Counted from the whole stretch's first letter, positions 6,341 through 54,452 are shown. The stretch: 62,085 nt of DNA, filler included, from Sanchytrium tribonematis (GCA_018985235.1; 8 parts of 8 records of this genome joined end to end with filler, not necessarily neighbours in it); one strand, 5' to 3'. Made by a program: numbers and translations. The notes: generated by a model from the letters alone, not told the origin.

Positions 6341-7496
6341 ATGCTCAAAGATTTCTCGATTCCGGCTTCTCCTGTGAAGCAGCTTTCAAATTTACAATAC
6401 ACTCGCAAAATAGATTGTTTAAAAATAATACAAAATTTTTGGGAAAGTCAGGAGTATAAAACGATACAAATAGACAAGATTTTTTCTAGCGTATGGATAA
6501 ACGAACGCGATATTTTGGTCGGCACTAAATGCAATCACTTGCTACTTTTATCAAATGATAAAATTATAAAGATTCCCACCTTATTTCCTGAGCCTGATCC
6601 AAATTATATCAAGCATACAAGAAATTATTGCCAAGGAATTCATTCGCTAGAGGTAAACCCTAGCAAAACGCTGATGGGTGTTAGTGGCGGCAAACCCTAT
6701 GAGATCGTAATTATGAGATTACCTGAATTAGTGCCCATGGCGGTCTGTTTAGGTCATGATGATTTGGTATTTCAACTTGAATTTATTGATGACCATACTT
6801 TGGCTAGTTGTTCAAGAGACATGAAAGTCGGAATATGGGAATTGAGCTCTGCCTATTATTGCGGATTGACAGAGTCTGGACTTCCAATTTTTAAGCCCAA
6901 AACTATGATGGAAGGGCATGCTGCCCGAGTTCGAGACCTTTCAATTGACCATATAAAAAATCAAGTTTTTACTTGTTCCGCTGATCACAGCTGTAAAGTG
7001 TGGGATTTAGAGACTAGCCAAGCAATTTTGTCATTCCAACCAAATTATTGCGAAGAAATGATTTGTTCTTCGATAAGCCAAAATCTGTATTCTGTTGGTA
7101 GTCAAACTCACGTGACTCTTTTTGATAGTAGAATTAAGCAAGCTATTTTGTCTGTGGAAGGAAAAGATGAAGGTTGGGGAATTCGTAGCTTGGACCTTCA
7201 CAATGAGACAATAACGATAGGTGGTGGGAAGGGTCGAATTTCATTTTTTGATATAACCGCAAGCAAATATCTGCCAGTCAAAGACAAACCATACCATGTT
7301 AGTGGAGATGGTTGGTTCGTACTTTTCTTTCACATAGGATTATAGTAACCACGAGTACTTACGGACTATGTATGGAATAAGACTAAGAAACGCAATTTAT
7401 ACCATGTCGTACGATACTGACAGAACCCGATTATTTACTGGCGGCGGACCACTTGCTTTAGGTCTAGTTGGCAGTTATGCGTCATTATGGCACTAA
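6341..7496 (+). CDS. DCAF12: DCAF12/WDR40-like WD40 protein; 2 exons (intron 7319-7337)
   Basis: DKIFSSVW, VGTKCN, GIHSLEVNPSKT; after splicing the frame gives the family C-terminus NAIYTMSYD..RLFTGGGPL..GLVGSYASLWH*. Confidence 0.85.
7319..7337 (+). other. 19-nt spliceosomal intron GTACTTTTCTTTCACATAG
   Basis: Removal joins GDGWF to DYSNHE... and restores the conserved DCAF12 tail. Confidence 0.9.
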
Positions 7497-7561
7497 TCTA
7501 ATTTAAATAGAAATAAAATATCGTTATTCGCTATTTATTTAGAATTTGCATTGTTTTGGGT

Positions 7562-7729
7562 CTAGTGTGAAAGGTATTTTCGTCCCTTTAAAACTCTTCT
7601 GAGCAGAATTTTTTGGCCCATCCTGTCCTTCCATCTAGATAAAAAACCCCAACGCCTTTTTCTTCTGATGGTCGATGGTTGGTATGTTCTCCCATAACTG
7701 GTAAATCTTTTGAATACAATTGACAACAT
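7562..7729 (-). CDS. MRPL34: Mitochondrial ribosomal protein bL34m (55 aa, missed by the ORF track)
   Basis: Hand translation [55 protein letters not shown] fits the L34 signature. Confidence 0.9.
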
Positions 7730-7741
7730 GAGGAGTTTGCA

Positions 7742-8275
7742 ATGGGGAAATCAAAGAAAACTCGATTGATTAGAGTAAAGAAGATGGCAGCGGTGCCTAA
7801 AAAGCCGGCAGAAAAGAAAGAAGAGGTTAATCATGTCCCACAAATTCCAACTTCTATGTTTCTTAGCTATAATTCGGCACTTGTTCCACCATATTCCATT
7901 TTAGTGGACACCAATTTTATCAATATGTCTATAAAAAACAAGTTGGATGTCGTTGAAAATGCCATGACTTGCCTTTACGCTAAAGTTGAAATTTTACTTA
8001 CAGATTGTGTTGCAGCGGAACTGGAAAAACTTGGAGAAAAATACCGGTTAGCGCTAAAAACATCCAAGAGCTTTGAAAGACTTCCATGCTCTCACAAAGG
8101 AACTTATGCAGATGACTGCTTAGTCCAACGAGTTGAAAGGCATCGATGTTATATTATTGCTACTTGTGATAGGGATTTAAAGAAAAGAATTCGTAAGGTT
8201 CCAGGCGTGCCTATTATGTATGTAGGAAATCACCAATACAAGATAGAAAGACTTCCAGACGCATCATTATTTTAA
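7742..8275 (+). CDS. FCF1: rRNA-processing PIN nuclease FCF1/UTP24
   Basis: [43 protein letters not shown]. Confidence 0.97.
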
Positions 8276-8296
8276 TAAATTTATTGATCAGAATGT

Positions 8297-8713
8297 CTAC
8301 GCATATGAATGATTAGATGCTTTTGTGTAACAAATCTTTTCTCGCAAATATAACAAGCAAAATTGCTTGTTAAGTATGGCGCTTTTAACATATGTTTGAA
8401 CCTGTGAAATTTGCTCATCCAACTCCCCCAAATTAGCATATGGTAAGTTCATATGGGAAACAAAGGCATAAATATTTCTCGCGTTAATTCTAGTGTTATG
8501 AAAATTGCAAGTCTGCGATAGAATGTAAATGTTTGATAGGCAGGCACATGATAGCTCTGTAATAGTGGATTCATAATCGAAGCAACCAAATATGTATTTG
8601 AACAATGATAAATGGATCTTCAATAGCAGGATTGATTGATAAAATTCATTTTTCTTCTTGTTTGTAGAGTATTTAGAAATTAAAGCAATTTTATATATGC
8701 CCCAATAATTCAA
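8297..8713 (-). CDS. Possible hypothetical protein; start unresolved
   Basis: 138-codon open frame filling an otherwise empty interval; no upstream ATG or consensus intron found. Confidence 0.3.
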   Translation of the reverse strand: MNYWGIYKIALISKYSTNKKKNEFYQSILLLKIHLSLFKYIFGCFDYESTITELSCACLSNIYILSQTCNFHNTRINARNIYAFVSHMNLPYANLGELDEQISQVQTYVKSAILNKQFCLLYLREKICYTKASNHSYA

Positions 8714-8894
8714 AAATGTCGTCTGTGTTTGATTGCTCGGACGAGAATATTTGTAACTTATTTGTTATTTTGATCTTGATTCTTACTGCTCATGTTCCGA
8801 AGATCTGAATTTCTTCAGAGGCTGAGGAGTAGACCGAATTTCAATTACTAAATGTCTCACATACTCCTTAAATGAATTCAGATTAAAAAATTTA

Positions 8895-11139
8895 CTAATT
8901 ACTTTCATCGTTTTCTTTACGTACCTGGTCGAATGCTGTTGGGGACCACTGCTTCCAAGGATCCGATTTTGGACTAAATGGTGCAAAACCCTGTGTTCTG
9001 GGAGAAACAATGGATTCGAAATTAGGCGATGCGGATGGAAATATATTAAGAGGGCTTGCTGGTTGTTGCATTGCTGAAATTGCTGCAACATGCGCAGCTG
9101 CATAAGCATGTTGAATGTACCGGTGACCTGGTGCTTGTGAAGCATTTAAATTATTCATAACTTGTTGTACACGCTCTTGTAAAACACGATTTTCTTCTGG
9201 GTCGGCAATGGAATTAAGAACGCGTTGCACGAATGGTGCCCCGTACATTTGGTCGGATAATATGTCCTCCAAAATAAGGTATTCTTGAACATTCATACTT
9301 CCAGGAGTTACTGTAGTTGCAAAGAATAACTCTTTAAGAACCATCTGCCGAGCATCAGGGTCCTGAGACTGTTGAACTATTTTGAAAACAATCTGAGATG
9401 CCAATTTGTGCGTGCAAAGTTGGACCAAATGAGATACTATTTGAGGAGCGACTACTCTGTATCTTCCAGGCAAATTTGAAGAATCTAGTAGCCAATTAAC
9501 CAGTAAAATTCCATTAGGATTAGTTGAAAGTGTTAATACACTTCTAATTATAGCTAAAGCGACATGCTTCTTCTGTTTCATTTCTGCGTATTGTGAGTCG
9601 AGACAAGCTCTCATAGCTCTTGCTCCAAATCGACTTTGTCCAAGATCCAAGCATCTAGTATGCATTGCGTCATAAACAAATTGATTTTTAGAAGCACCTA
9701 ATCTTAAACAACATTGAACAACATAATTTCCAAACTAAATGAAATATAATTACTTGATCAATCATAAGCGGCGGAGTATACGCTTTAACTGCATTGCATA
9801 AAGCATCCATCTGCTCTGGAGTATCTGCTATATCTATTAGCTTTTGAACCACCCAGGTACCATGTTTGTGTGCACCCAATGTGGCAAAGTATGGTGCTAA
9901 AGATTTGATAATACGGAGTCTCTTTTCATTTGATCCCTTCAAAGCCAATTTTTGAACTATTGTGTTGCCAATATAATCAGCAGATAAAACTAAGACATCA
10001 TCTATTAATTCTTTATAAATAAATTCGTAATCCCTTTGCGTGTGATTACTGTCAAGTTTTCTCCTATACTCGCGAAGTTTGCTTTGATCTAGTTTTTTGA
10101 ATTCTGGAAGAGAAGGTAAAACGTCTTTGAATTCATCTTGCTGGCCTCTGAAATCTCCGAATCCAGATGGCGCCACCAATGGGGAAACTATGCTCTGATC
10201 TGTTCCCAAATCTTTTGGAATGTTTGGTTGGATTCTATTTTGGTAAAATGTCAAAGGCGTCATAACCCGAGGTGAAAAACTTGCACTTTGCGAAGAGTAC
10301 GAATTAGGCGACATAGGCTGAATTGTTGTGTTCAATTTCAAAGCACCTCGAATTGGAGATGAGACAATTGGCTCAGCTGATTTTGGAGACTTCGCGAAGC
10401 CGATTTTAAGGGTAACACCAAAAACTTCAGTGTTGTTCAATGATTTTTTAGCAATCAATGCGTCTTCCTCTTTTACAAAATTTACGAAACCACAATTTTT
10501 GTTTGTCAAAACACGACAGCTTTCAACATTTCCATACGGTGAGAATACAGTGTGAAGCATTCCAACGGAAACAGTCGCTGGTAAATTTCCGACATATAAT
10601 GACCTGCTTGAAACTACTGAATGATCGCTCTCGATTGCTTTCCCATAAGAAACACTGACTTTAATGGTATTTCCATCACTTAAATTAATGGATCCATTTT
10701 TGTCCAATTGGTCTTTTGCTGTAACAGCGTCTTGCGAGTTAACAAATGCAATTTGCATCAAGCTTTCTTTCTTGCGGTATGTCTCCAACTTATAGTTTCC
10801 AAATGCTCCAAGAACGACGGGACTTAATTCAGACTTGTCCATTGCTTCAATTATTAAAAACCGGGAAGCTTTTTCATTTGCTTCTAAATCTCCAAAACCC
10901 AACGTTTTTGTTGGAGTAACGGGTTCTTCGGTATCTATGTTTAATTTTTTAGTGTCCAAACCGAGTAATGACATAGTTGTTTGTGCGTGCATATAATCAT
11001 CCATTAATTTGTCTTTGAATGAACCTTCAACTGCTGACATGGGACCAGTGTGTGGGCGATGCGTCTTTTTTATGTCGTTATCATCTCTTGTTGTCTTTAA
11101 CGCAGCAGCGAAAGATTTTTGAGTATTTTGGGAAGACAT
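8895..11139 (-). CDS. RRM + Pumilio-repeat protein (Jsn1/Puf2-like); 2 exons (intron 9735-9753)
   Basis: RRM (SRSLYVGNL, KNCGFVNF) and PUF repeats (DYIGNTIVQK, HKHGTWVVQK); splicing gives DQ|FGNYVVQCCL, merging two ORFs. Confidence 0.92.
9735..9753 (-). other. 19-nt spliceosomal intron GTAATTATATTTCATTTAG
   Basis: Removal restores the PUF motif DQFGNYVVQ. Confidence 0.93.
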
Positions 11140-17324: not shown

Positions 17325-18486
17325 ATGGACATTCCAATTAATAGTGGGTCAATATTCAACGGAAATTCTATTTTGTTAGGCGGTGGTGGTGGGTCTAGTA
17401 AAAGTGGCATTAAGAATAAGCTCATCATGCTGGATGAAAAAGTTGTAGTCAGAAAGGAACTAATTCTCGAAGATGAACATGATTCAATTATGAGTGTACA
17501 TTCTGTGGATGACTATATTGTATTCTGTGCTAATGATTCCAAGACAAATATTAAAGAAAATATCAATAACGATTTGCGGGTTTATAAATTTATTAACGGC
17601 GAATTTGAACAGCAATGGAAAGGTCAAGCAATTTTCAAACCACCATCAGAGTACGTTAGAGTCGTCAGAATATCCCCCAAAAAGGACTATATACTTTGCG
17701 GGACCACCGAAAAAACGATAGTTGCAACAAAATTGGATCGCTATTCTATTTTGAAAGGTGAATTGCCAGATGAAGTATATGACATCGATTTTATTGATGA
17801 CACAATTGCGATTTTAACAATGCCTTCTCAAATTTCAATTATAGACATTAAGCCAGAAAAAATTGAGAATTTGTTTATTTTACCACTTCCAACTTATTCT
17901 GGGAGTAAAGCCTCTCCTAATTATAGATGTGCAAAGACAATTGCTTTTAACAATAAGCAAAAACTACTGATTGCAACAAATTTGGGGAGAGATCAAGGCT
18001 ATCTTTCTTGGTTTGATATTCAAAAAGAAGAAGAAATAACAAAAGAAATTCCAGAAGAAGATAAAGAAAATGCGAGACGTAAAAGTATAGTAAAAGTAAA
18101 ATGGGGATTTAAATTTCTAAAAACAAATTGTGTGTCGAAGCAACCAATAAGGAACATTGCCATAAGGTACTTTAAGTTTATGTAGCACAACACGAGAATT
18201 AATTGCATGTGCTCTTAGTGGTGATATTATCATTCTAAATTTCAATTTTTCAAATCTGTTCAAGTATACACCTCACAAATTTCCAGCTAGTGTTCTTTTA
18301 TTTATAGACAATGACAAAAAGTTGCTTTCATCTGGTGCTGATCAAATTGTGCATGTTGAAGCATTGGAGCAGAGCAAATTTAAATCCTTTAGTGTGGCTT
18401 ACTTAATAATCATAGCATTGATTGTTGGATTACTATCAGTTCTTTACGTTTTTTTCTATCAAGACTTTATGGATCAAGAATTATAA
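17325..18486 (+). CDS. SEC12: SEC12/PREB-like Sar1 GEF; 2 exons (intron 18167-18185)
   Basis: K-loop GGGGGSSKSGIKNKL; exon 2 supplies last WD repeat (HKFP, SSGAD), TM anchor and C-terminal DQEL. Confidence 0.88.
18167..18185 (+). other. 19-nt spliceosomal intron GTACTTTAAGTTTATGTAG
   Basis: Removal opens about 100 codons containing the expected SEC12 TM segment. Confidence 0.9.
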
Positions 18487-18584: not shown

Positions 18585-20547
18585 ATGTCTTTATCATACC
18601 AAATATTGAACCCAGTTCAAATAAGCGTACCGTGTATATATCCGCATATTAATTTTAACTACAATTTTAAATTATTCAATGGAGATTTGTTCAAGGTCAA
18701 TTTTGAGCCTTATCCTATGAATATTGAAGAAAGATTTTATCAAGCAACTATAGATTACCGAGGAATTATAGGTGGCGGTCATATGTTTGTAGATAAAGCA
18801 AAAAGTTGTGACACATATCCTGGAATTCTAATGGAATTCAATTGGAATAACACCGAATATAAATTGGAAAAAATTAATTCAAACTTTGTGGTACAAGAAG
18901 TTATTCTAGATACGAGCAATCAAGCTAATGAGCAGCTGACATGTGGATTAGAGGCTGACTTAAGTGCTTTGTCTTTTTCAGATTCAGGGAAGCAGTTTCA
19001 ATTTGTAACACAGCAATCTTCATGTCCTGCCCAAGTAAAATATGCCAGTCTGGGAATTGCAGTGGACTGCTCCGTCTCACAACAATCAAAGAATGATATA
19101 AATGCAATAACGCAAGAAGTTTTGGCTAATCTTGCAAAAACAAATGTTGCTTTTGGTAAATTTTATAATGTTCATTTGGTTCTTAGCGACTTAGACATAC
19201 GGCTTAGCTGTAGTCAAACTTATACATCTCCTACAGATAGCATTAAAGATGGTGAATTCGATAAGTGGAATATTCCTTGTTTTAATAATTATCCAATAAT
19301 GCAAAGAATTAGTGATTTTTCAAAATGGAGAGGAAGTAGGAAAGATAAAATTGATGTATGGCATTTATATAGTACATGTGCTTCAGATTCAAAAGTAGGC
19401 TTAGCTTGGCCAAGTGCTGTTTGCAATACTGGGGCTACAGCTGCAACTGGTAACTACATGTATAGCGGGACTAGTATAAGTACTAGACAGCAATCCAGCT
19501 GGAAAGTTATGGCTCATGAGATTGCCCACAACTTTGGTGCAATCCACGATTGTTTAACGACTTGTGACTCATCCTGTCATACTTGTAGCAGTAACTGTGA
19601 TTGCGCTGGCAAATATCTCATGAATCCAAATCAAAATGTTGCAACCGATGATTTTTCACCCGGTACAATCCAGGATGTTTGCAACACTATACCAAGTTTC
19701 ACATGTTTGAAATCGGATGCTTCCTTAATTTATGAATTTGCTCAAAACAAATGTGGCAATGGTGTTGTAGACCCTGGAGAAGAATGTGATTGTGGAGATC
19801 TGTGTGATTCTGATACATGTTGTACAAATACGTGCAAATTAAAGCCAACTGCTCAATGTAGTGATAAGAATCAGGCTTGTTGCAATCAATGTAAATTTAA
19901 ACCAAAAGACACAATTTGCAGACTTAAAGAAAGTGTTTGTGATTCAGAAGAAAAATGCACTGGAAATAGTGGCAATTGTCCAGCTGATTCTTATGACAAT
20001 GATGGATCGTCATGTACCGATGGCTCATTTTCTGGAAATTGCGCATCAAAATATTGCACTTCTCCAGATAAGCAATGCACTGATGCTAATCCGTTGTCGA
20101 CTGGTGCTTGCACAGGATTTGGAGCCGAATCCAATGATTGTATTTTGACTTGCAACTTAAATGGTGGATGCGCTCAATTCCAATCATTTTTAATTGATGG
20201 CACAATCTGTGGAGGTGGTTTTGGTAACTGTGAGGCTGGATCCTGTCAATATTCAAGTTCTTGTAATCAGCATTTATGTAGGGGATCAATTTCGAGGATT
20301 TGTAAGTATATATAAAGTGTTTTTTATTATAGGGGCTTTGATTGTAGGTATTCCACTGCTGATGTGTGGCTATAAAAGATTCAGAAAAAAGAAAAACAGA
20401 GTACAGACTTCAGACAATAGAAAGACTGGAGATGGAGAGGAATGGGAAGTGTGGGAAACAGAAGAACAAAATCACATTCAGATAGAAGATGACCGGCAGC
20501 CATTGTCTCCTATTAAAAGAACGCCATATAGAGATCCAGACGAGTAA
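18585..20547 (+). CDS. ADAM metalloprotease-disintegrin; 2 exons (intron 20263-20281)
   Basis: HEIAHNFGAIHD zinc motif, Met-turn, CGNGVVDPGEECDCG disintegrin; exon 2 gives TM and cytoplasmic tail. Confidence 0.92.
20263..20281 (+). other. 19-nt spliceosomal intron GTAATCAGCATTTATGTAG
   Basis: Removal joins CQYSSS to WDQFRGF..TM, merging two overlapping ORFs. Confidence 0.88.
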
Positions 20548-20549
20548 AT

Positions 20550-22206: not shown

Positions 22207-22516
22207 CTATTCTAGGTTGAAATAAATATCTGCTTTTAGTTTGGCTGCTTCTTGTAATTGCGCCTCGTCTGCACCGGCATTAAGCTTCTTGAATTCAGGA
22301 CAGCCTAAGATCAAGTGTCGAATGCGCATGTCTCTTCTATTTCCGGACTTCAGCATCTTATGACAAAGTATACATTCCTAAATTATTATAATTTACAAGA
22401 GGTGTTCCGTGGGTATTGTTGACATGTCGATCTAAATCAAATTTCCTCGGGAATGACTTGTTGCATTTGCGGCATATCAGAATCTTATTATTATTGGTGA
22501 TGAAGTCCAATCGCAT
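22207..22516 (-). CDS. Small C2H2 zinc-finger protein (96 aa); 2 exons (intron 22378-22396); missed by the ORF track
   Basis: MRLDF..CRKCNKSFPRKFDLDRHVNNTHGTPL|ECILCHKM..RIRHLILGC..YFNLE*. Confidence 0.85.
22378..22396 (-). other. 19-nt spliceosomal intron GTAAATTATAATAATTTAG
   Basis: Separates two zinc fingers; spliced CDS is 291 nt with no internal stop. Confidence 0.88.
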
Positions 22517-27951: not shown

Positions 27952-30900
27952 CTAATCCATGTAGCCTTTCAAGATTTCATCACCAATGCTTTGACGACCA
28001 ATTGTGAGGGCTGTGGATTCCCTTTGAGGTCCCTCAAACCTCTCTCTACTCAGCGTAATATCATAATTACGAGGAGATTCCAAATTAGGCGATTTTGTGG
28101 ATTCTTGTGATCTCTCTACATTTTCTATTTTTAAAGATGATTCTTTCTTTTCAGACATCTCAGTCTTGGATGACATTTCCTCATTGGAAACAGATTTGAC
28201 ATCAACCATACTTTGTGCATTTCTAAGCAGCGTGTTCTTTTTGAATTTATTGAATGGATGTGCATTTCTAAACGAAGTTCTTGGGGAATTTAATTCACTC
28301 AAAGATCTATAAGACCCACTATTCTTGTCACTAGGTAATTGGGGTAATGGTTCGACTACAATTGATTTTACCGCATTATTATCAAGTCTTGAATTCAATC
28401 TGGCTGGTTTTCTCTTTGAAATGGCAGAATTGAAGCTTTCTTTTCTGGCTTCAAATTCAGGAGCCACATAAAATGGACTGGAAGGTTCGTCATCTCTGTT
28501 GGAATCTTTAGATGAATTATTGGACCAACGAGGATCTTTTGGAGATTCTTTTGAAGAATCTTTAGACGTGCGTTGATTCTTTGATGAATCTTTTGAATTA
28601 TGCGCGTCTTTAGCAGATTCTTTTGCAGAATCTTTTTGTAATCGAGGATCCTTCTGTAGACTCTTTGTTTTTAAGCGCAACCCATCCAATTCAGTTTTTA
28701 AGATATCAAATTCCTCAGTACCAGCATACTCTTCTAAAATGGTCAACTCTAGATCCTTTAAGATGGTTTGTTCCATAAGAACTGCTCCATCTATATTGCC
28801 ACCAAAGAACTTTTGCAATTTGTTAAATTTCTTTTGTTTTGCAAGTCTATTTTGTTCGTCTAAATCTTCTTGACTTTCTGATGTTTCAGGCTCTTTTTCG
28901 TATATTTCACTGATCATGGATTCCAATTTAACCTCTTGTTGGTCGGATATCATCCTACTTAAAGATTTCATGGTTTCTAGGTGCTGCTCAGCACGATGTG
29001 CATAATCTACAGTATTATTGACTTGTTCTACAGGTACGTTTTCTCCAAATTTCTTTTGCAGCTTGTCAAATCGCTTTTTGTTGACATTCTTGCCATTTTT
29101 AACAGCTAAAGATTGAATTCTAGATTTCTCTAAAACATTAGGAGAAATGCGCTCTCCCAGAATATTGTAAAGTTTATCTATTCGCTTCATTCTAATATCC
29201 TTATTTGCCTTGTCATCCTCATCAAGATCTGCATCTGCATCTACCTCTTCCCTTTTAATTGATCTGGAGCTGACTCTTCTGTTAATATTTTCATCAAAAT
29301 AGTTTTGAAGCAATTCTGGGAATGCATCTTTCAAAAGAGAGATCTCATCTTCATTTTCTGTCAAATCATGATTAGATTCATTTAATGTAGGTTCAAAAAC
29401 TGTAACCTTCTTTTGAGATTTCATCAAACCATCATCTGGCGTAGTTCCAAGCATTTCTGCTAGTTTCTTTTGTCTTTTCTTTAAAATTCTTCTCTCGTCC
29501 TCAGTCAAATCATTCTTAGTGCCTAATTCTTCCGGTTCTTCAATCAATTCAGAACTTCTACTTTCTCCTTTGACTTCATTTTTGATCATGTTCATGATAG
29601 ATTGACGTGGTGGAGGCTCATTTTTATTTAATTCGATGTAACTAGGTGGTCTCCCGCCAAAGAATCCCTCTAATTTGTCCAATTTCTTAATTTTTTGACT
29701 CCTTAGTTCTTCTGCTTTTTTCATGAAGCTCTCTTTGCTCTGCATGCTTACGCGTTGATCACTTTCATCACTCGTCAATACGTCACTGAATACGGTTTGT
29801 CTTCTGCTTTCTACATAGACTGGTTTCTCTCCAAAGAATTTGGCCAATTTTTTATCTTTGGTGACCATCTTCATTTTGTTGATATTCGTTGACATGGAAT
29901 GAAAGTACCTTCCAGTGAATGGAAATGTGACAAAATATCGAATAACTACTTTTTCTAGAGCATTTTCACGTACATTTCTGTAATAATCTACTTGAGAAAA
30001 TGGCGTGCCTTCTGGCAATTCAGAGACATCTACAAAGTCCATTTTAGTCAATTCCAGCATGAGATTATAGTCAGGTGTATAATCAATGAAATACGACTTG
30101 ATTTCTTGGTCTAAATTAATAAATTTTTACCTTCTTGCCATTGTTGAAAATTTGGTGATTTCATAAATCCGTGTAACAAGTGCAATTTGAGCACATTGTA
30201 AGCATCCTGCTGAGTCTCATCAAAGAATGTTTGATCTTTCTGCACAATCTCATAAGTTGGTACTGGCACGTCCTCTATAATATCTGGTCTGACATTTAAT
30301 CTTAGAGGCGAGTTCTTGCGTAAATACATTTTATGGAGGTATCTCGCGAATAATAACCATGTCTCAGGTGGTGATTCTACAAATATCTCTACTTCTAACC
30401 AAAACAACAAGTATTCAATGGAATACTCCTTATAACAATATTCTGCAAAATATTTAAATCCATTTTTAGATCTGAGAATCTTCTTTAAAGTCATATCGTC
30501 CTGGTCTTGGGTCTGCCTAAATCTATCTAATGCTATTAACATGCCAGAATGAGTTAATTCTTCTTCATTTTCCTCTACTTGTTTCTCAGAGTGAATAATG
30601 ATAATCGTGTCATTGTTATTCAAGACATCTCCTACTAGCGTATCAAAGTGAATAGGCTGTTCTTGAGCATTTAACACCAGTCTAACCATCAATGGACTCA
30701 CTTGCTTGCCTTCTAATGCCTCCAGTTGAAAATTAAAATCAGCTTCAACCAATTTTGCTAAATAATCGATAGATTGGGTGGTATCAACTGTAATTTTAAA
30801 TTGATATTGCAATAATTGAATGTTGACTGAAATATTGATGAACTCTACCATTGGATTTCTTTTGTTTCTCTTGTTTTCGGCCAAAAATACGCGCAAATCT

Positions 30901-32442: not shown

Positions 32443-32764
32443 GTATTCCCGAGCGAAGGAGCTAATGTGAAGTCAAAGTAGTCATGTACTATCCTAGGCC
32501 AGCTTTGCGGCTGTTTCAATAAAATACATTTGTTTTGTAACATAGGTAATTTAAATCGAATTGTTGGAAGACAATATCATTTTTTTGGTCTTCCGTTGAT
32601 TGTGACAAATATCGTTTTTGGGATGGCTACTTGTTGGCTACATGTTGGCTTCTTGTTGGCTTTTATGTAAAGCCATTAAAATTTTGATTGGTAGGTGGCT
32701 CTAATTTGTAATATTTTATTGGTGAAAAAAAGCCACGTTGTCCCGGCGATTTTTATAATAGGAA
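32443..32764. mobile_element. 319-bp non-coding insertion inside pol (junction slides by a few nt)
   Basis: Splits the conserved KELR(S/R)ILGSINFF motif; internal 11-bp tandem repeats. Confidence 0.75.
32624..32664. repeat. About 4 copies of an 11-bp unit (TGGCTACTTGT-like)
   Basis: tggctacttgt tggctacatgt tggcttcttgt tggctttt. Confidence 0.85.
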
Positions 32765-34503: not shown

Positions 34504-34673
34504 TGTCATGGATGGCATTAACGACGACGATAATATCGTTAATTACGTCGACACAATTGATTGGAATGATACAATTGTTTATTGGAGAGATGGTGTCACG
34601 CAGTTACTTGGACCATCTATTTAAGGAGACTCGATATTAATAAATACCTTGCCTTTAGCTCATTCTTGTCACA
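34504..34673 (+). repeat. Putative 3' LTR (170 bp)
   Basis: Starts TGT directly after purine tract GAGGGGCAGGA; contains TATTTAA and AATAAA; ends ACA; 5' copy not in the contig. Confidence 0.65.
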
Positions 34674-35035: not shown

Positions 35036-35280
35036 TTACTGTTTTGATTCTTTCGGTTTCTTATCTTTTGGTTTAGCTACATTATTATTGATTTACATTT
35101 ATCAAGTTTTAATTTTTCAAGTTCTTTTAACACTCTTTCCAAATCTGTTGACACTCTTTCTAAATTTGATTTTAATCGTTCGTTTTCAGCTGCAAGATCA
35201 GGTTGTACAGGTAACATTGGTACTTGATCTACAACCGATGGTGCATCCACAAAACGCTGAGGGTAACTTCCACGACCCAT
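35036..35280 (-). CDS. Small coiled-coil protein with Lys-rich tail; 2 exons (intron 35077-35096)
   Basis: LAAENERLKSNLE heptads; splicing gives ..DKSKPKDKKPKESKQ*. Confidence 0.55.
35077..35096 (-). other. 20-nt putative intron GTAAATCAATAATAATGTAG
   Basis: Matches the THAYNTAG consensus; no homology support. Confidence 0.6.
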
Positions 35281-36549: not shown

Positions 36550-37311
36550 CCAACAATTCATTCACTGGAAGCATCCCACAATCATTGAGACAGGTGAAAA
36601 CATTGGATATATCTCATAATTACTTGAGTGGCTGCATCAATTTCCAATTCAATGGCTCTTATTTCTATTTCAATGATAATTATTTGAGTGGCAATTTGTC
36701 ATTTCGAGCACCTTCTCAGCTGTATTTACAGAATAACAGAGTGAATGACGTGTTGATTAGCAATGCAACAGGGTTAACAAATTGTAGTTTGGCCAATAAT
36801 CCAATGGCACCTGGAGTGTTTGGTAAAACATTTAAAAATCAATGCAATTTGAATGGGATTTACACGGCTGGTGAAAGCACTTGTAGAATACTGACAATTG
36901 AAGAAGCTAAAAAACACGATTCACTTTTTCAATCTACTATAAATACAAGTTTAGATGTTTCTCAAATTTTGAAAGATAAAAGCATTATCACCCGTATCCT
37001 CAATTAATTTAGGCCCCATTCGCATGTTGACATCTGCTATAGCGTCTCAGGAATCTTCCATACCTCATTTTATTCCCAGAAATGAAACTACATCTCAAAT
37101 TTCAGTTTCAATCATCCCATTTGAATGGAAGCAAGTGGAGACATTTAAACTTGTTATTTCACCCATAATCATATTGAAATTACTTATTGATTCATTGCTA
37201 TTGATGATTGTATTAAAAATAACCCCATTCAAGAAATTATTGCAAAAGAAACAACAAAAAAGTGAAAGATCTAGTCACTATTTAAGTTTTAGCATGAATG
37301 GTAGACTCTAG
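36550..37311 (+). CDS. LRR single-pass membrane protein, copy 1 (5'-partial; intron 36994-37012)
   Basis: Paralog of 37391-39517; spliced IITRPIRM aligns to paralog IITRPIRL; shared tail HYLSFSMN. Confidence 0.88.
36994..37012 (+). other. 19-nt spliceosomal intron GTATCCTCAATTAATTTAG
   Basis: Boundaries confirmed by the intronless tandem paralog. Confidence 0.93.
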
Positions 37312-37390
37312 ATGATCTATGAATCAATAAACATAATGATATCTTGCGCCAACATATGTTCTCAAGTAGGCCAAACAGAATCCGTCAGAA

Positions 37391-41392: not shown

Positions 41393-41594
41393 GTTTGACC
41401 CTCAAATTAGCAGTGTCCCAGTTTATTTTTTGATGTAATATTCGCAATGATTTACCTATCAATTCTTTATCTACCCCTATGTGATGAAAATGCAACAGTC
41501 AGCCCCCTTTCAAACATGTTGACTAAATATTTATTTTTATTTGATAGTCTCATTAGCAGACTCTGTCACAACAGATTGTCGCTTCTTTTTAGAT

Positions 41595-42085: not shown

Positions 42086-42856
42086 TTATAACATTAGGTA
42101 ATCTACTTCCGTTGTATCGAATTTCAACTTGAACCATTCCAATTCGTTCAATTCTTCAACTGATTTAATTAGATTTGGATTGCAATTCATTGTACTTTCA
42201 AATAATTCTAAAAGCATCTTTGTTTGATCAGCATTCAGGCCTACCAAATTCAGTCCCAAGTCGTTTTCCTGTACTACATCTGAATCATCAATGATAAATT
42301 CATCTTTTTCATTAATACAAACACCTGCAGCATTTTCCATTTTGAACACCAATTGATAAATCATGACCCCGTAATTGTAAATATCTAACCAAATGGTGCT
42401 TATCTGAGTTTTGTCATTTAAAATCCATGCTGATGGCAATTGATAGTAAAACTCATGCGAAGTTCCAATTTTCAGATTTTGATTAATCTGAAATCCACTC
42501 AACTTGAATCCATCTTCACATTTCACAATCTGTTTATAACTCACACCTTTGGAATGTAGATATGTAATACCATTCAATATATCCACAGTCGCCGAATAAA
42601 GCTCTTTCAATGGCAAACTATTAACAATATCACTCGAAACTACACTGCATTCTTGAAATTGTACTTCAAATTGAGAAACAGTGCCCCCATATATACCGAG
42701 AACACGTACTATATTCGATTGTGGCTGCATTTGAAGATTTTCGAAAAATTCACTCCAAAAAGGAATGTTTGCATATAATTCAGCAAAATTGCGTTTGTAG
42801 AGTGATTTGTCAGATTTCAACAATGGCTGGCATAAAATAGCAAGATAGAACAACAT
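42086..42856 (-). CDS. Divergent pseudokinase with hydrophobic N-terminus, copy A
   Basis: NIVRV, DILNGITYLHSKG, IVKCEDGFKL, DIYNYGVMIYQL; catalytic loop shortened. Confidence 0.75.
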   Translation of the reverse strand: MLFYLAILCQPLLKSDKSLYKRNFAELYANIPFWSEFFENLQMQPQSNIVRVLGIYGGTVSQFEVQFQECSVVSSDIVNSLPLKELYSATVDILNGITYLHSKGVSYKQIVKCEDGFKLSGFQINQNLKIGTSHEFYYQLPSAWILNDKTQISTIWLDIYNYGVMIYQLVFKMENAAGVCINEKDEFIIDDSDVVQENDLGLNLVGLNADQTKMLLELFESTMNCNPNLIKSVEELNELEWFKLKFDTTEVDYLML

Positions 42857-42984
42857 GTGTCTCAAAATCCTCTTGAGTCTTTTTATTTGTCAAAAGACTC
42901 CCCTCATTTCTCCATCTGATCTGTGCACAGTCAAAATGGAAAATAGTCAATAATTTATTTCTTGCGGCTCTATGCTGATATGAG

Positions 42985-43824
42985 TTAACCCACGGATTGC
43001 TGGTCAACAGGAGGTATAGAGCGCGATTGCTTATTATCTGACGAGGCAAAAGATTCCTGAAACCATTGCAAATTAAATAAATTTTCCACTTTTTCAATCT
43101 TTTTCAAATCACAATTCATTGTTAATTCAAATAACTTCATCAAATAAGAATATTCTTCATCAGTCATTTCCAATACCATATTTTTTTTTTGGAATTTGAC
43201 CTTCATCTCGTCATCTGATAGATCGTAGCAGAGCTTTAAATAAATATCCCCAAATGACATTTCATACAATGATTTGGCATAGCTTACCAGATCCCAAATT
43301 CCTGAATGTAAGTAGTATACCCCCATCTGATTCCGTAGAGTAGGAGCATAAAGAGAGGCTACGAGCCATCCAGGATTTACAATCGAAATCTTTCCTAGGG
43401 AACCCAGATTCTCCAGATTTTTTAATTTGAATACATCACCACATTTTACAATATTTCTTGGTTGAATGTTCATATGATGCATTCCTAATATGTGTAGATA
43501 CTCTATCCCTTTCAACACGTCGATCGATAATCGCTTAAAAGTGGCAAAATCCATTGAACCTGAATTATAGAAATCACAAACTTCTGTGTACCAAAACATT
43601 CCATTTCCAGATTCAATCATGTGACATATACTCACAATATTAGTTGGTTTCTTATATCCGTACGTCCCGGTTGCGAAATTATAGTAATCCCGGAATACTA
43701 TCCCCTTATAATATCGCTTCTGGCAGGTCACTTGATGTCCATTATCCAACTCACAGTCTAAGTATCCTCTGCTATTTGTTCCAAGTTCTCGAAATCCAAA
43801 TAAAATGACAAATACAATCAACAT
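42985..43824 (-). CDS. Divergent pseudokinase with hydrophobic N-terminus, copy B
   Basis: DVLKGIEYLHILGMHHMNIQPRNIV (HRD to HMN), FKLKNLE (DFG lost), DLVSYAKSLYEM. Confidence 0.8.
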   Translation of the reverse strand: MLIVFVILFGFRELGTNSRGYLDCELDNGHQVTCQKRYYKGIVFRDYYNFATGTYGYKKPTNIVSICHMIESGNGMFWYTEVCDFYNSGSMDFATFKRLSIDVLKGIEYLHILGMHHMNIQPRNIVKCGDVFKLKNLENLGSLGKISIVNPGWLVASLYAPTLRNQMGVYYLHSGIWDLVSYAKSLYEMSFGDIYLKLCYDLSDDEMKVKFQKKNMVLEMTDEEYSYLMKLFELTMNCDLKKIEKVENLFNLQWFQESFASSDNKQSRSIPPVDQQSVG

Positions 43825-43994
43825 GTGTCAGAGGCACAGTGATCTTTTTAAATGTCTATTTAGCCCCCTTGTACCTCCATGTGATCTGTGCCAGTTGTAC
43901 GAAACATGAATTGTGATCTGTGCGTGTCTCACAATGAAGCACAATTTTAAAAGACATTTACAACATTCTACAACTCTTTTTACTCCATATTTAT

Positions 43995-45594
43995 TTATTT
44001 TTTACTTTTTAACAATGTAACCCCCTCTTCAATTCTACCCATCAATTTATCATGATCTCCCAATAATTCAATCACGTCACTCAATTCCATTTGTAATACC
44101 ATACCCACTAATTTACTCACTAATTCTGGCTCCATAGGTCGAATATATCCAAATAATGAATTACCAATCATCTTTTTAGCTTGCATTTCATCCATTTGAG
44201 CAACTTGAGCCAATGGGAGTGGTAATTTCACACCAGATGGCGTATCAATCAATGCAGCACCTCCTAATTGACCTGGTCTGCCAATGGGTCTACTCATTTG
44301 ACCACCATGGCCTGTATGGAGGGGTCTTGCCATGCCGCCCATACCTCTATTCATACCAGATACGCCTGTTAATCCCTGTAATGGACGCATTGGACGCATT
44401 CCAAGGGGTCTCACAACATTCATTCTTTCTCTATATTGCTGTTCCAACTGCATTCTCCGTTGTTCTTTACGCTGTGCCAATGCGACATATAATGGCTTAC
44501 TACCCACAATTTTACCATTCATTTCAGTCACTGCTTTACAGGCTTCATCACTATTCGTAAAACTGACAAATCCAAATCCCTTGCTTCTTTGATTTGCATC
44601 TCTCATGATTTTACAACTTGTAATTTCACCAAATACTTTAAATTCATTCATTAATTGGGTGTCTGACATTTGATCATCTATATTCTTAATATAACAATTG
44701 GTAGAGTTGGTTAATTCATGTTGTTTAGAGAGATTGGCTTGTCGTTGTTGCTTCTTTTGTGCGGGTGAGACATAGAGTACTAAATCAGGTAAATTAGATT
44801 CACCATTTGCATCCGATTGATCACTTTTTAATTCTGGGTGTTTCTCAATTAATTCCTTGACGGGGACATCATTTAATTGTAATGCGCTATTGGCACTTTC
44901 ATGATCTTCATAATTGATGAATGCAACACCTTGTCCATTGACAAATACACTGGTCATGGCTCCATATTCTTTAAAAATCAATTCTAAATCGGAATCTGTC
45001 CAATGTTTTGGAAATTGTTTAATGTAGATATTAGTGAATAAATCATTAGTTTGTCGTTCATTTTTAGGGATGAAGAGATGGACATGGACTTGTTGGCCAT
45101 TCATGTACTTTAAATGGACAGATTGGATGGCATTTAAAGCATCTTCTTTGGATTCAAAATGGACGAAACCATATCCTTTAGATTGGCCATTTGCAGTGGC
45201 TACTTTACAGGATATGATCTTGCCGAATTGAGAGAATGTATCATGAAGTGCTTTATGGTCGATATCCGGATGTAGATTCTTGATGAAGATATTGCCTAAA
45301 TGAGTTAAAATGACCTTCATTGGATTTACGGATGGATGGATCACGCTGAGACCACATAATTCTACATGGTTTATTCTTAATTGGGGTGTAATTTAATGAA
45401 AATGCTCTGTTGGCGTCATCAGGGTGCGCGAAATTGACATAAGCATAACCGAGGGATTGTCGGGTGATATTGTCACGACAGACTCTGACAGAGGAGACAG
45501 TGCCCACGACAGAGAACATCTCGAATAACATGGCTTCTGTGACAGATTTATCCAATTCGCCGACGTAGAGAGAGGTTGATGCTGGTTGTTGCAT
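43995..45594 (-). CDS. PAB1: Cytoplasmic poly(A)-binding protein; 2 exons (intron 45296-45314)
   Basis: Four RRMs and MLLE domain; splicing restores [21 protein letters not shown]. Confidence 0.97.
45296..45314 (-). other. 19-nt spliceosomal intron GTCATTTTAACTCATTTAG
   Basis: Exact restoration of the highly conserved RRM1-RRM2 linker. Confidence 0.95.
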
Positions 45595-49048: not shown

Positions 49049-49151
49049 TCAATAAATTTTTAAGCTACACAAAATGCAATAATACAACTCAAAGTCCGGG
49101 TGACAAGATTAAAACTTAATATTAAGATCTTTAAGTTCCCCTACAAATGAT

Positions 49152-49224
49152 GCCTTTATAGCTCAGTTGGTAGAGCGCTGCACTCGTAATGCAGAGGTCT
49201 GTAGTTCAAATCTGCATGGAGGCA
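49152..49224 (+). tRNA. tRNA-Thr(CGT), intronless
   Basis: Acceptor GCCTTTA/TGGAGGC, D-arm AGCTCAGTTGGTAGAGC, anticodon arm CTGCA-CTCGTAA-TGCAG, GTTCAAATC T-loop, TTTT terminator. Confidence 0.95.
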
Positions 49225-49232
49225 TTTTAAAT

Positions 49233-50474: not shown

Positions 50475-50527
50475 TTCCAAAGGAGGTTTCAACTCGTATT
50501 GGATTTTTGAAAATCTCCGTGTTTAAA

Positions 50528-51241: not shown

Positions 51242-51248
51242 AAGCCAT

Positions 51249-51871
51249 TTATTCCAAGATTTCTAGTACCTCCTGTATTACAAAGTTTCCATCAACTGGA
51301 GCCTCAACAATGTTATCGGGATAATCCACAAGATCGTTGATTGTAGAAACCATTTGCTTGACCCTATTCCATGGCAATTCTTTGTGGATCAGTTCTCGAA
51401 ATATTATCTTTGTTCCTTTTTCGTGGTACATTCGCATATCTCTTTGTATGTATAAAACATGGTCAATTCTAACTGTCTGCCTTAGTAACAGGAACCATCC
51501 AAATTCCATTTCTCGGCATTTTACTTCCAAATGGCTTTTCCCGTGATCCGAAAATTCATCTTCAAACAATTCCACATGACTGAAGTGTAAAATTGGAACT
51601 TGGGCTGATAATTTATCCAGAGGCATGAATGTATTATTTGGGTATTTCACATACTTTGATCTATAATTACCACAAATATCGCCAAAATAGTTCGTTAGAT
51701 AAGTCCAGTCATAAGGTTTTGCAGTAGTGTATTTAGAATGTGTCCACTCGTTATGCACTTTGTACATTACTCTTTTTTCTACGGTTTTCAAAGCGCCCAA
51801 TGAATCAAATTTAATTGAAAAATTTTGATTTTCAATCAATAAAAAATTGGTAATTAGTTTTAATGTTAGTC
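51249..51871 (-). CDS. TIP41: TIP41/TIPRL, 5'-partial
   Basis: KPYDWTYLTNY.G, LFEDEFSDHG, VKCREM, RIDHV. Confidence 0.9.
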
Positions 51872-51971
51872 NNNNNNNNNNNNNNNNNNNNNNNNNNNNN
51901 NNNNNNNNNNNNNNNTTAATTAATTAANNNNNNNNNNNNNNNNNNNNNNNNNNNNNNNNNNNNNNNNNNNN
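51872..51971. other. Artificial contig linker
   Basis: Same spacer. Confidence 0.97.
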
Positions 51972-52722
51972 ATGCTGCCTATTACAATGTAATGGACAAA
52001 TTACTTAGAAATTGTCAGTTGAAATTAAATTTATCCAATGGCATTCCAGTTGAATTTGAAATTTTGGATCATGTAATTGAGTTATTTTTGAGATTATTAG
52101 ATGTAGAAGTATTAAAAAAAACTCTTGTCCCTGATAGGCCACTTGTTCGATATAAAAGATATTTAGACAAGATTCATTTTGTGCGTCCTAATAATGATTA
52201 TTACAACAAATTACTACAAGAAACATTCTGGCAATACAAATTGGAGTTTAACAAATCTAAAGAATTAATAGAAGCATTTTTATCAGCGGAGGAACATTTC
52301 CAGAAGAACTTGTAAGACGAGCCAGTTTTAACAAACAACATGAATATTTGGAATTAATTAAAAAAGCGTCCAAGGCTAGGGATATGTATAGTGATTTTTG
52401 TTTAAATTGGTTATTGCTTGAGATTGATGATTATGATGCGATTTTACTTGATGATATTTGGAAGCAGTTCCCAGAGCATATTCCTAAATTGTGCTGCATT
52501 TTGGATGCTAAGGTGATGAATAACGAACCAGAACGAAAAAGAATTCACGATAAATACAAATTTTGCCTTAAACAAGGTCTAAAAAATCATCAACATGTAA
52601 AATCAATTCAGAGAGTCTGTATTGTTGGACTTTGCAAAAGATTAAAAATAGAAATGTCAGATGCAGTAAAAAACTCTATTCTATCAGATCCTGATCCATT
52701 CACTAGAAAAGTATTACAATAA
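51972..52722 (+). CDS. Hypothetical helical protein in two frames (break near 52246-52315)
   Basis: Two consecutive ORFs; no consensus intron explains the shift. Confidence 0.4.
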
Positions 52723-53494
52723 ATTGTAGTCGCTGCTGAGTACCCATTATTTTCAAGCCACAAATTTTGCCGAAAAGCAAATGGATATGGGGAAATTTCA
52801 GGTAAAGATAGATACATTAATAGAGTGCTCTCTGAGAAAGAAAGCAATTATTTATCTTGTAATATAAAAAAAGGGGCGATGCGATTGAGCTATTCGGCGT
52901 TTTGGCAGGTTATGACTTAACTTGGTTTGTCTATTTAACGGAAACCTGATCTACGGATAACCGTGTAGCTTTTTTCAAACACAATCCGCTTCTTATTTCT
53001 AAAGGAATTTCAATATAACAAAGGCGCCCAACTATATGGCATTCTTTTTATATGGGAATATATCAAAACTTCAAGGACTTATTATCTCATGCTTAATTTC
53101 ATGGTTATTTTGTATGGTTTTAATATTGTGAAGTGGTTCCAGAGTCATTAACAAAAACTCAGCAGATATTGATAAATGCATTAAATGAAATTCTTCATGT
53201 GGTGTTCTTCACTATGATATTCGAAAAATTTAACATTGTTGTGGATGATTGATGTTGTTAGATCTAGAACAAATGACCGCCTAGTATCTATTCTTTTGTA
53301 ATCGTTTAATTAATGAGAAGAAGCTAGAATATTTTGTTAAAAATAAAAATAAAGTTTAGCAACAGCAGATTTTAAACTAGATGATGCTTTAACATTCAAA
53401 CATTATTGATATGTAATTTGCAAAGTAAACATAAAGAGATTTTTAATTTTAGATACGATCAATTTCAAGGGCGGTTTGAAACAACTGCATTTAC

Positions 53495-54452
53495 ATGAAT
53501 TTCTTTAAAACTAAGTCAAAAACTCCCCAAGAGCTTGTCAAGTCTTTGAGAGACTCGATTACAAGTAGCAAGTTTGACGAATCCAACAGAATCATAAATC
53601 AGTTAAAAGTAAGCGAGGATGAGCAACTTTTACAAGTTTTGCAGGAATTTATTGCTAGTGACACCCTATATCTGACATTACTACATATGCAACATTATGA
53701 GTTCGAGGCTAAAAAAGATTTAGTTTATTTGGTCAGCGTTTTGTTGCGAAAGCACGCAAACACTTTAGTTGATTATATGGTTGATCGAGAATCTAAACAA
53801 ACTCAATTATTAAGTTATTGGATTGGGAATTACAGTAACGCCGATATTGCATTAAATTGCGGTATGCTTCTGAGAGAGTGCATTCGATACAATGGCCTTG
53901 CTTTTCTAATTTTAGAAAACAAACAGCTTTTGGAGCAATTTTTTCAATTAGTTGAATTACAAACATTTGACATAAGCAGCGATGCTTTTGCCACCTTTAA
54001 GGAACTTCTCACAAAGCATCCAATTGACGAATTTTTGGAGAAAAACTATGATTATTTTTTTGAAAAATATACAACTCTTTTAAATAGTCAAAATTATGTT
54101 ACAAAACGGCAATCGCTCAAACTCCTCGGCGAGATTCTTTTAGACAAACAAAATTATAATGTCATGATGAAGTACATTTCAAATGTTGACAATCTGAAAT
54201 TGCTTATGAATTTGTTAAGGGACAAATCTAAAAATATCCAATATGAGGCATTTCATGTGTTCAAGGTCGTTATTATTTACCTAGATTTTCGTTGCTAATC
54301 CAAACAAGACTGAGCAAGTGAAAGATATACTACTTAAAAATAAGGAAAAACTGCTTCTATTTTTGAGCAATTTTCACAACGATAGGACAGAAGATGAACA
54401 ATTTATGGATGAAAAAGCCTACTTAATACGACAAATACAGGACCTGGAATAG
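53495..54452 (+). CDS. HYM1: MO25/CAB39/Hym1; 2 exons (intron 54266-54284)
   Basis: [29 protein letters not shown]; splicing restores [15 protein letters not shown]. Confidence 0.97.
54266..54284 (+). other. 19-nt spliceosomal intron GTCGTTATTATTTACCTAG
   Basis: Exact restoration of the conserved FHVFKxFVANP. Confidence 0.95.

What the first reader, a model, noticed from the sequence alone, without database searches (positions are those of the whole stretch)
7319..54284. Ultra-small, length-fixed spliceosomal introns (19-20 nt) in a fungus-like nuclear genome
Seen: ten introns on five contigs. Eight are 19 nt (7319-7337, 9735-9753, 18167-18185, 20263-20281, 22378-22396, 36994-37012, 45296-45314, 54266-54284) and two are 20 nt (30111-30130, 35077-35096). 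I found no longer intron. In PABP, MO25, PUF and DCAF12 removal exactly restores conserved motifs. Known: introns this short are described from heterotrich ciliates, Mikrocytos and chlorarachniophyte nucleomorphs; fungal introns, including microsporidian ones, are generally longer. Inference: an independent origin of tiny-intron splicing in Holomycota, with a remodelled spliceosome. I do not know of a description but cannot check the literature. Default gene predictors would split or truncate these genes.
Basis: partly seen in the sequence, partly recalled or inferred. Interest (0 to 1): 0.92.

Follow-up and report, generated by a model that had tools for sequence, protein, structure and literature searches.

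The report
Tiny 19–20-base introns in sanchytrid fungi
Genes of a sanchytrid, an alga-parasitising fungus, are interrupted by 19–20-base inserts with intron ends and a fixed internal motif; they are most likely spliced out by the ordinary spliceosome, which would make them shorter than any fungal intron in the papers read, though no RNA was available to show the splicing.

Summary
Observation confirmed. All ten segments are 19–20-nt GT…AG inserts (on six contigs, not five). Six junctions are fixed by homology (MO25, PABP, DCAF12, PUF, RGS protein, LRR paralog), three rest on protein anatomy, one on motif alone. Added here: 10 of 10 end T-N-A-Y-N-TAG, so the likely branch adenosine is always sixth from the end, as in Stentor's 15–16-nt introns. 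The organism is a sanchytrid (MO25 86% identical to Amoeboradix gromovi), and A. gromovi's MO25 carries an inferred 20-nt intron at the same site. Four of five sites that could be compared lack the intron in a relative or paralog, implying turnover. The published A. gromovi annotation lists a conventional spliceosome core but no Slu7 or Prp18 tag; Stentor's table lacks both too (a lead only). Tiny introns are known in ciliates, mikrocytids, nucleomorphs, myxozoans and microsporidia (~25 nt); ten literature searches found no description in sanchytrids, whose published proteomes were predicted without splicing. No RNA run or whole genome was available, so splicing and genome-wide length fixation are untested. 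Earlier scan notes report 26–30-nt introns in Rozella, none on sanchytrids. Verdict: new variant of a known kind.

The parts
7319..7337 (+). 19-nt intron, phase 0, in a DCAF12 gene (exons 6341-7318 and 7338-7496)
   Evidence: Best of 59 junctions; relatives P0243 and P0394 are contiguous across the site; Pfam PF23760 on both exons
9735..9753 (-). 19-nt intron, phase 0, in an RRM-PUF gene
   Evidence: Exons align to PDB 6ny5_A 66-180 and 181-319
18167..18185 (+). 19-nt intron, phase 2, in a Sec12-like gene
   Evidence: Exon 1 matches yeast Sec12, E 1.5e-4; exon 2 had no PDB match of note; removal adds 100 codons with a C-terminal membrane helix. Anatomy only
20263..20281 (+). 19-nt intron, phase 1, in an ADAM-type metalloprotease gene
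   Evidence: Reprolysin and disintegrin domains on exon 1; removal adds a membrane helix and basic tail. Anatomy only
22378..22396 (-). 19-nt intron, phase 0, in a small C2H2 zinc-finger gene
   Evidence: zf-C2H2 on exon 1; removal adds a C-x2-C...H-x4-C finger-like stretch. Anatomy only
30111..30130 (-). 20-nt intron, phase 1, in a long RGS-domain gene
   Evidence: A. gromovi ortholog P0395 (1036 aa) and three other fungal proteins span both exons; best of 30 junctions
35077..35096 (-). 20-nt candidate intron, phase 1, in a short coiled-coil ORF on a retroelement-bearing contig
   Evidence: Fits the motif; removal only swaps a 6-residue end for a 13-residue end; no homolog. Unconfirmed
36994..37012 (+). 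19-nt intron, phase 1, in an LRR membrane-protein gene
   Evidence: Tandem paralog 37370-39514 is contiguous at the site; best of 34 junctions
45296..45314 (-). 19-nt intron, phase 1, between RRM1 and RRM2 of PABP
   Evidence: Best of 31 junctions; colinear with intron-less P0133 (A. gromovi), P0122 and P0241
54266..54284 (+). 19-nt intron, phase 0, in MO25/CAB39
   Evidence: Best of 60 junctions; Pfam 277|278; 4 of 4 close relatives are broken at the same site; 20 nt inferred in A. gromovi

Best explanation
The ten 19-20-nt GT...TAG inserts in this sanchytrid genome are most likely U2-type spliceosomal introns shrunk close to the working minimum, with the predicted branch adenosine fixed six bases from the 3' end. 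Shown: the ends, the lengths, the T-N-A-Y-N-TAG motif in 10 of 10, and exact restoration of homologous proteins at six sites. Inferred mechanism: U1/U6 read a short GT(A/C) donor; U2 pairs with a degenerate TNAY branch site at -8 to -5; branching forms a 14-15-nt lariat loop with a 5-nt tail; the first AG after the branch point is the acceptor, with no room for a pyrimidine tract. The donor-to-branch minimum and the fixed tail would set the length, and deletion bias would push introns down to it. Slu7 and Prp18 would be dispensable at this branch-to-AG distance and may be lost. Most sites differ between sanchytrids, so introns are likely still being lost or gained at this size.
For: Junction ranks and colinearity. 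A at -6, T at -8, pyrimidine at -5 and T at -3 in 10 of 10; chance of all-A at one position 3e-5 and all-T 7e-4 from the introns' own composition, or 0.002 and 0.013 for the six homology-fixed ones. A. gromovi MO25 tail: offset 20 scores 80 against at most 24 for the other scorable offsets 0-44 and at most 56 in 200 shuffles, and it admits GT..AG ends. Stentor's branch A lies at 10 of 15 and 11 of 16, i.e. -6 (PMC9505925, passages); Yarrowia's ACTAAC-AC-AG gives the same -6 (PMC2483917, passages). A. gromovi annotation holds PRP8, BRR2, SF3B1, K12831 (SF3B4, label recalled), PHF5A, PRP31, SNRNP40, U2AF35, K12837 (U2AF65, label recalled), K13095 (SF1, label recalled), U1-70K, PRP17, PRP22, ISY1, SNU13 and cactin (PMC8371127 supplement file 4). 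Slu7 and Prp18 are dispensable at short branch-to-3'SS distance, and Prp18 is described as a ruler for a minimum distance (PMC10711555, passages); both are N/A in Stentor's table and have no tag in the A. gromovi sheet.
Against: No spliced RNA was seen. No snRNA or spliceosomal gene lies in the window; the spliceosome list comes from a different species. Only ten introns in 61 kb were examined. The motif was defined on the same ten. The MO25 16-nt and RGS 26-nt alternatives score close. One intron has no homology support, and three rest on anatomy. Missing Slu7/Prp18 tags are weak evidence: only 3,757 of 7,220 proteins were annotated, and tags recalled for U1C and SF3B14 were also absent. One relative's MO25 intron cannot be 19-20 nt.
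Confidence: 0.86

Rival explanations
1. The inserts are real introns but are spliced poorly, as in microsporidia, so retention and decay regulate these genes or intact paralogs elsewhere carry the function.
For: E. cuniculi short introns are spliced at under 20% on average (PMC6349667); Mikrocytos introns at 63% and 37% (PMC10245619, section 7). The window's PABP exon 2 is only about 50% identical to close relatives while exon 1 is nearly identical, so it may be a diverged copy.
Against: The downstream exons are conserved and open (MO25, DCAF12, PUF, RGS). The MO25 intron site is kept in 5 of 5 clade members. This rival changes efficiency, not identity.
Confidence: 0.25
2. The genome has a broader or two-peaked intron length distribution, and this window shows only the short peak.
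For: One unnamed relative's MO25 tail admits only a 24-nt GT-AG intron or a longer one with an internal stop; two other tails stop inside the intron, so their lengths are unknown. In-frame introns without a stop and UTR introns are invisible to my scan. One frame break is unexplained.
Against: 10 of 10 called introns are 19-20 nt; many conserved genes cover their Pfam model in one ORF (Serinc 1-434 of 434, Cornichon 2-122 of 122, TIP41 6-174 of 174, Mem_trans 2-339 of 343); no frame-joining motif-bearing candidate of another length marks a new convincing site.
Confidence: 0.2
3. The inserts are amplification or assembly artefacts, or disabling mutations in pseudogenes.
For: Both described sanchytrid genomes are single-cell assemblies (PMC8371127); the window has one unexplained frame break, and a relative's contig shows an apparent 1-nt frameshift in DCAF12.
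Against: All ten have GT and TAG ends with a shared internal motif and different interiors; a second species has an inferred 20-nt GT-AG insert at the same MO25 site; three more unnamed assemblies break at that site.
Confidence: 0.02
4. The inserts are removed without the spliceosome (endonuclease and ligase, ribosome bypass, or DNA-level excision).
For: A 14-nt lariat loop is hard to picture in a canonical active site; the same doubt was raised for nucleomorph introns (PMC6009652, passages).
Against: GT/AG ends with a TNAY branch-like motif at a fixed place; a spliceosome core is annotated in the sister species; shorter introns are accepted as spliceosomal in Stentor and Mikrocytos. No fold or enzyme test was run.
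Confidence: 0.04

Closest known systems
Stentor coeruleus 15-16-nt introns (PMC9505925; passages and part of Table 1 seen)
   Same: AU-rich, GU-A start, two-length class, branch A at -6 with a 5-nt tail, conventional core spliceosome, Slu7 and Prp18 not found
   Different: Ciliate; 4 nt shorter; about 8,800 introns; here T at -8 and TAG occur in 10 of 10, whereas Stentor's branch region is described as lacking a strong consensus
Mikrocytos mackini 16-17-nt introns (PMC10245619; abstract, section 7, passages)
   Same: Parasite, two adjacent lengths, conserved intron sequence, low intron density
   Different: Rhizarian; only 17-19 spliceosomal proteins and 224 introns; A. gromovi's annotation is much fuller and the density here is about 1 intron per 6 kb
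Chlorarachniophyte nucleomorph 18-21-nt introns (PMC6009652 passages; PMC10245619)
   Same: Same length range, GT-AG ends
   Different: Endosymbiont remnant nucleus; 3.1 introns per gene; no discernible branch A or other motif
Encephalitozoon cuniculi introns, about 25 nt, and Rozella allomycis introns, about 30 nt (PMC6349667, passages)
   Same: Holomycotan parasites with very short GT-AG introns
   Different: 5-10 nt longer; E. cuniculi has 37 introns, strongly 5'-biased and mostly in ribosomal protein genes; here introns lie mid-gene or late and RPS6 has none; separate branch of the tree
Yarrowia lipolytica fixed branch-to-AG distance (PMC2483917, passages)
   Same: A fungus with the branch A at -6 and no pyrimidine tract
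   Different: Long introns (median 204 nt in that paper's table) and a strict ACTAAC branch site
Myxobolid and dicyemid short introns, median 22-27 nt (PMC13644364; parts 1 and 2 of 3 read)
   Same: Opisthokont parasites, donor reduced to GTa, U2AF retained
   Different: Animals; broader lengths; the branch A's move away from the AG as introns lengthen, whereas here the A stays at -6 in both lengths

Membership tests
U2-type spliceosomal intron | GT at the 5' end, YAG at the 3' end | tested here: met
   10 of 10 GT...TAG
U2-type spliceosomal intron | Branch-site adenosine in a yUnAy-like context near the 3' end (consensus recalled) | tested here: met
   T-N-A-Y at -8 to -5 in 10 of 10; sequence only, no lariat seen
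U2-type spliceosomal intron | Precise removal restores the conserved reading frame | tested here: met
   6 of 10 by homology; 3 by anatomy; 1 unsupported
U2-type spliceosomal intron | Absent from mature mRNA | not testable with these tools
   No RNA data could be laid on the window
U2-type spliceosomal intron | Major spliceosome (snRNAs and proteins) encoded in the same genome | tested here: inconclusive
   No snRNA in the window; no whole genome held; core proteins annotated in the sister species A. gromovi
U12-type intron | RTATCCTT donor and TCCTTAAC branch site (recalled), minor spliceosome proteins | tested here: not met
   Only 1 of 10 starts GTATCCT and none holds the branch site; no K1315x, U11 or RNPC3 tag in the A. 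gromovi sheet
Fixed-length tiny-intron genomes (Stentor, Mikrocytos type) | Nearly all introns of the genome fall in one or two lengths of 21 nt or less | tested here: inconclusive
   10 of 10 in 61 kb and one inferred 20-nt intron in A. gromovi; one relative allows only 24 nt or longer; no whole genome
Microsporidian-type reduced splicing system | Few 5'-biased introns and a strongly reduced spliceosome | tested here: not met
   Introns are mid-gene or late; 61 K128xx tags in the held part of the annotation file, 8 of them seen
Sanchytriomycota (host lineage) | Groups with Amoeboradix gromovi to the exclusion of other fungi; GC about 35% | tested here: met
   MO25 86% to A. gromovi against 42-59% to the other 115 listed hits; clade support 1.0 in a 34-sequence FastTree tree; contig GC 32-36%

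The most novel reading that the evidence does not exclude
Sanchytriomycota is a whole fungal phylum whose introns are almost all 19-20 nt, the shortest in opisthokonts, spliced by a Slu7/Prp18-less spliceosome that measures 5 nt from the branch A to the acceptor. It converged on the Stentor design, and it still gains new introns at this minimal size.
Probability: 0.35. Interest if true: 0.88.

Novelty: new variant of a known kind. Interest (0 to 1): 0.72.

Why it matters
It would add a true fungus to the few lineages with introns of 21 nt or less, and push the fungal minimum below the roughly 25 nt of microsporidia. The same -6 branch position in a ciliate, a yeast with long introns and this fungus points to a physical floor of the spliceosome; paired with possible Slu7/Prp18 loss it can be tested in yeast, whose splicing factors are close homologs. 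Site differences among sanchytrids give a small system for asking whether minimal introns are gained or only lost. In practice, the published sanchytrid proteomes were called without splicing (PMC8371127, section 18), so about one gene in five or six (10 introns in roughly 55 candidate genes here) may be truncated, which bears on claims of gene loss in this phylum.

Tried and rejected
No whole genome is held. RNA runs: none was listed for 51972-56983; this is no evidence either way, and no reads were laid. Metagenome scans gave no sanchytrid DNA: 197 pattern matches and none confirmed for MO25; 65 PABP loci, none above 76% identity, not analysed further. Neither protein search showed a close full-length MO25 that could come from a spliced transcript. 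The protein atlas gave no answer twice. PDB searches gave nothing useful for Sec12 exon 2 or the ORF at 52261-52719. Further 17-22-nt motif-bearing candidates were listed; none joins two frames convincingly, and 7523-7542 (+), 41477-41496 (-) and 51989-52008 (+) were left as untestable. The A. gromovi PABP ends before its MLLE domain; I did not test whether an intron causes this. The single-gene MO25 tree does not resolve the deeper position (the clade sits by Rozella on a long branch); the sister relation to Blastocladiomycota is taken from PMC8371127. I found no intron lengths for Blastocladiomycota. U12-type identity was rejected. Literature: ten searches pairing sanchytrid, Sanchytrium, Amoeboradix or Sanchytriomycota with intron, splic or spliceosom, plus tiny/short-intron terms; none showed a description. 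The library lacks most subscription papers, and two supplements of PMC8371127 (MOESM1 pdf, MOESM4 xlsx) were too large to read and one was a scan.
Full report
What the window is. It is eight contigs joined by spacers, 32-36% GC, densely packed with eukaryotic genes; Pfam names Serinc, DCAF12, Fcf1, RRM-PUF, ADAM, RGS, PABP, Rpn13, MO25, RPS6 and others among 70 ORF pieces. The MO25 first exon has four close relatives at 86-89% identity, one of them named Amoeboradix gromovi, while the other 115 listed hits are 42-59% identical. The five form a clade with support 1.0 on a long branch in a tree of 34 sequences (34 of the 120 hits). The organism is therefore a sanchytrid other than A. gromovi. 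Sanchytrids have 10.5-11.2 Mb genomes of about 35% GC and are sister to Blastocladiomycota (PMC8371127; abstract, passages, section 18).

The observation. All ten segments are present, GT to TAG, eight of 19 nt and two of 20 nt, on six contigs. To test boundaries I removed every GT/GC..AG candidate of 10-90 nt near each site and scored the product against homologs. The stated intron came first for MO25 (1 of 60) and PABP (1 of 31), DCAF12 (1 of 59), the RGS protein (1 of 30) and the LRR gene against its tandem paralog (1 of 34). The margins are narrow for MO25 (415.9 against 410.6 bits for a 16-nt variant) and RGS (718 against 712 for a 26-nt variant). PUF exons meet at residues 180 and 181 of PDB 6ny5_A, and MO25 exons at Pfam positions 277 and 278. 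For the Sec12-like and ADAM genes removal adds a membrane helix (peak hydropathy 1.1 to 2.8 and 1.0 to 2.4), and for the C2H2 gene a second finger-like motif; these have no junction homolog. 35077-35096 has only the motif. A blind scan of lengths 12-60 nt for frame-joining GT..AG segments peaked at 19 nt (11 hits; 0-9 elsewhere), and 19 of 21 motif-bearing hits used acceptors of eight listed introns. One frame break at 52261-52312 has no 19/20-nt solution.

Aligned on the 3' end, 10 of 10 have T at -8, A at -6, a pyrimidine at -5 and T at -3; the donor is only GT(A/C); interiors are 84% A+T. From the introns' own composition, all-A at one position has chance 3e-5 and all-T 7e-4; for the six homology-fixed introns 0.002 and 0.013. 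These positions were chosen after looking. The 20-nt introns add their extra base upstream of the A. This reads as a degenerate branch site (yUnAy consensus, recalled) with a 5-nt tail and no pyrimidine tract. Stentor's branch A is at position 10 of 15 and 11 of 16, also -6 (PMC9505925, passages), and Yarrowia's ACTAAC-AC-AG gives the same spacing (PMC2483917, passages).

Relatives. No sanchytrid DNA could be fetched, but public ORFs called without splicing run into introns. All four close MO25 relatives stop 2-23 residues after the conserved FHVFK motif. The A. gromovi tail hides the second exon in another frame at offset 20 only (score 80; other scorable offsets 0-44 at most 24; 200 shuffles at most 56) and admits GT and AG ends, so a 20-nt intron is inferred. 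P0003 admits only 24 nt or a longer intron; P0002 and P0004 stop inside the intron. A Gonapodya model has a 25-residue insert at the same site (P0079), which suggests an old fungal intron of about 75 nt there. The other four testable sites differ: PABP is contiguous in 3 of 3 relatives including A. gromovi, DCAF12 in one unnamed cluster (P0243, P0394), RGS in A. gromovi (P0395), and LRR in the adjacent paralog. Sanchytrid identity of the unnamed records is inferred from similarity. Whether these are gains or losses is not resolved.

Machinery. The window has no snRNA. The eggNOG table of PMC8371127 (supplement file 4: the A. gromovi sheet of 3,755 rows plus 171 rows of the second sheet) holds PRP8, BRR2, U2AF35, SNRNP40, SNU13 and cactin, SF3B1, PHF5A, PRP31, PRP22 and K12831 among 8 seen of 61 K128xx tags, U1-70K, K12837 and K13095, PRP17 and ISY1. 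It has no hit for Slu7 or Prp18 by name, KEGG or KOG number (numbers recalled), and none for minor-spliceosome tags. Against reading much into this: recalled tags for U1C and SF3B14 are also absent, and only 3,757 of 7,220 proteins were annotated. Stentor's table lists Slu7 and Prp18 as not found, and in yeast both are dispensable when the branch-to-3'SS distance is short, with Prp18 described as a ruler for a minimum distance (PMC10711555, passages).

Mechanism. Most likely (0.86) these are U2-type introns at a working floor: a 14-15-nt lariat loop, a 5-nt tail, the acceptor set by distance, a largely conventional spliceosome, and possibly no Slu7/Prp18. Ends, lengths, motif and restored proteins are shown; splicing, branching at -6 and factor loss are inferred. 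Poor splicing efficiency (0.25) and a wider genome-wide length range (0.2) remain open and are compatible with intron identity; artefact (0.02) and non-spliceosomal removal (0.04) are unlikely.

What is known. Introns of 15-16 nt (heterotrich ciliates), 16-17 nt (Mikrocytos) and 18-21 nt (nucleomorphs) are described (PMC10245619, abstract, section 7 and passages), as are median 22-27 nt in myxobolids (PMC13644364, parts 1-2 of 3), about 25 nt in E. cuniculi and about 30 nt in Rozella (PMC6349667, passages). The 2026 myxozoan paper lists ciliates, microsporidia and dicyemids as the exceptions and does not name sanchytrids in the parts read. The sanchytrid genome paper used TransDecoder on contigs; 'splic' occurs 0 times in its main text and 'intron' once, in a reference title. 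PMC10459994 and PMC10470594 say nothing on sanchytrid introns (passages); PMC9730499 and PMC8476143 gave intron counts or densities for blastoclads, not lengths (passages). Ten searches found no description; subscription papers and three supplements were not visible. The scan's own notes hold nothing on this genome or sequence and report 26-30-nt introns in Rozella.

Verdict. A real class of 19-20-nt introns in a true fungus, apparently undescribed: a new variant of a known kind. Density is about 10 per 61 kb, which would be some 1,700 per genome if the window is typical (inference). Interest 0.72.

Noticed in passing
window 31399-34621 (+): Broken LTR-retroelement pol remnant: RVT_1, RT_RNaseH and integrase zinc-binding domains in separate ORFs.
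   Followed up: no
window 52261-52312 (+): Two long ORFs (51974-52312 and 52261-52719) overlap in different frames; no 19/20-nt GT-AG joins them; 14-, 17- and 26-nt candidates exist without the motif. Possibly a frameshift or sequencing error; no Pfam or PDB match.
   Followed up: partly
window 36552-39514 (+): Two tandem LRR membrane-protein paralogs with a near-identical DNA stretch; one has the 19-nt intron and the other lacks it.
   Followed up: partly
window 36994-37012 (+): This intron starts GTATCCT, like a U12-type donor (consensus recalled); 1 of 10, no U12 branch site, probably chance.
   Followed up: partly
window 43998-45594 (-): PABP: RRM1 is nearly identical to close relatives, but the part after the intron is only about 50% identical, suggesting faster change or a diverged copy.
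   Followed up: no
P0133 (A. gromovi PABP): Ends before the MLLE domain that P0122, P0241 and the window have; may mark an intron at another site.
   Followed up: no
window 7523-7542 (+), 41477-41496 (-), 51989-52008 (+): 20-nt motif-bearing GT..TAG segments outside coding frames or at a contig end; possible UTR or extra introns.
   Followed up: no
window 42089-43827 (-): Two tandem, highly diverged kinase-like ORFs with weak Pkinase matches below the Pfam cut-off.
   Followed up: no
window 3543-5030 (-): LtrA-family membrane protein (Pfam describes it as bacterial low temperature requirement A) in a fungal contig.
   Followed up: no
window 49151-49225 (+): tRNA-Thr(CGT) without an intron.
   Followed up: no
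P0392, P0393 against P0394: A relative's DCAF12 is split in two ENA contigs by what reads as a 1-nt frameshift, not an intron (judged by eye).
   Followed up: partly
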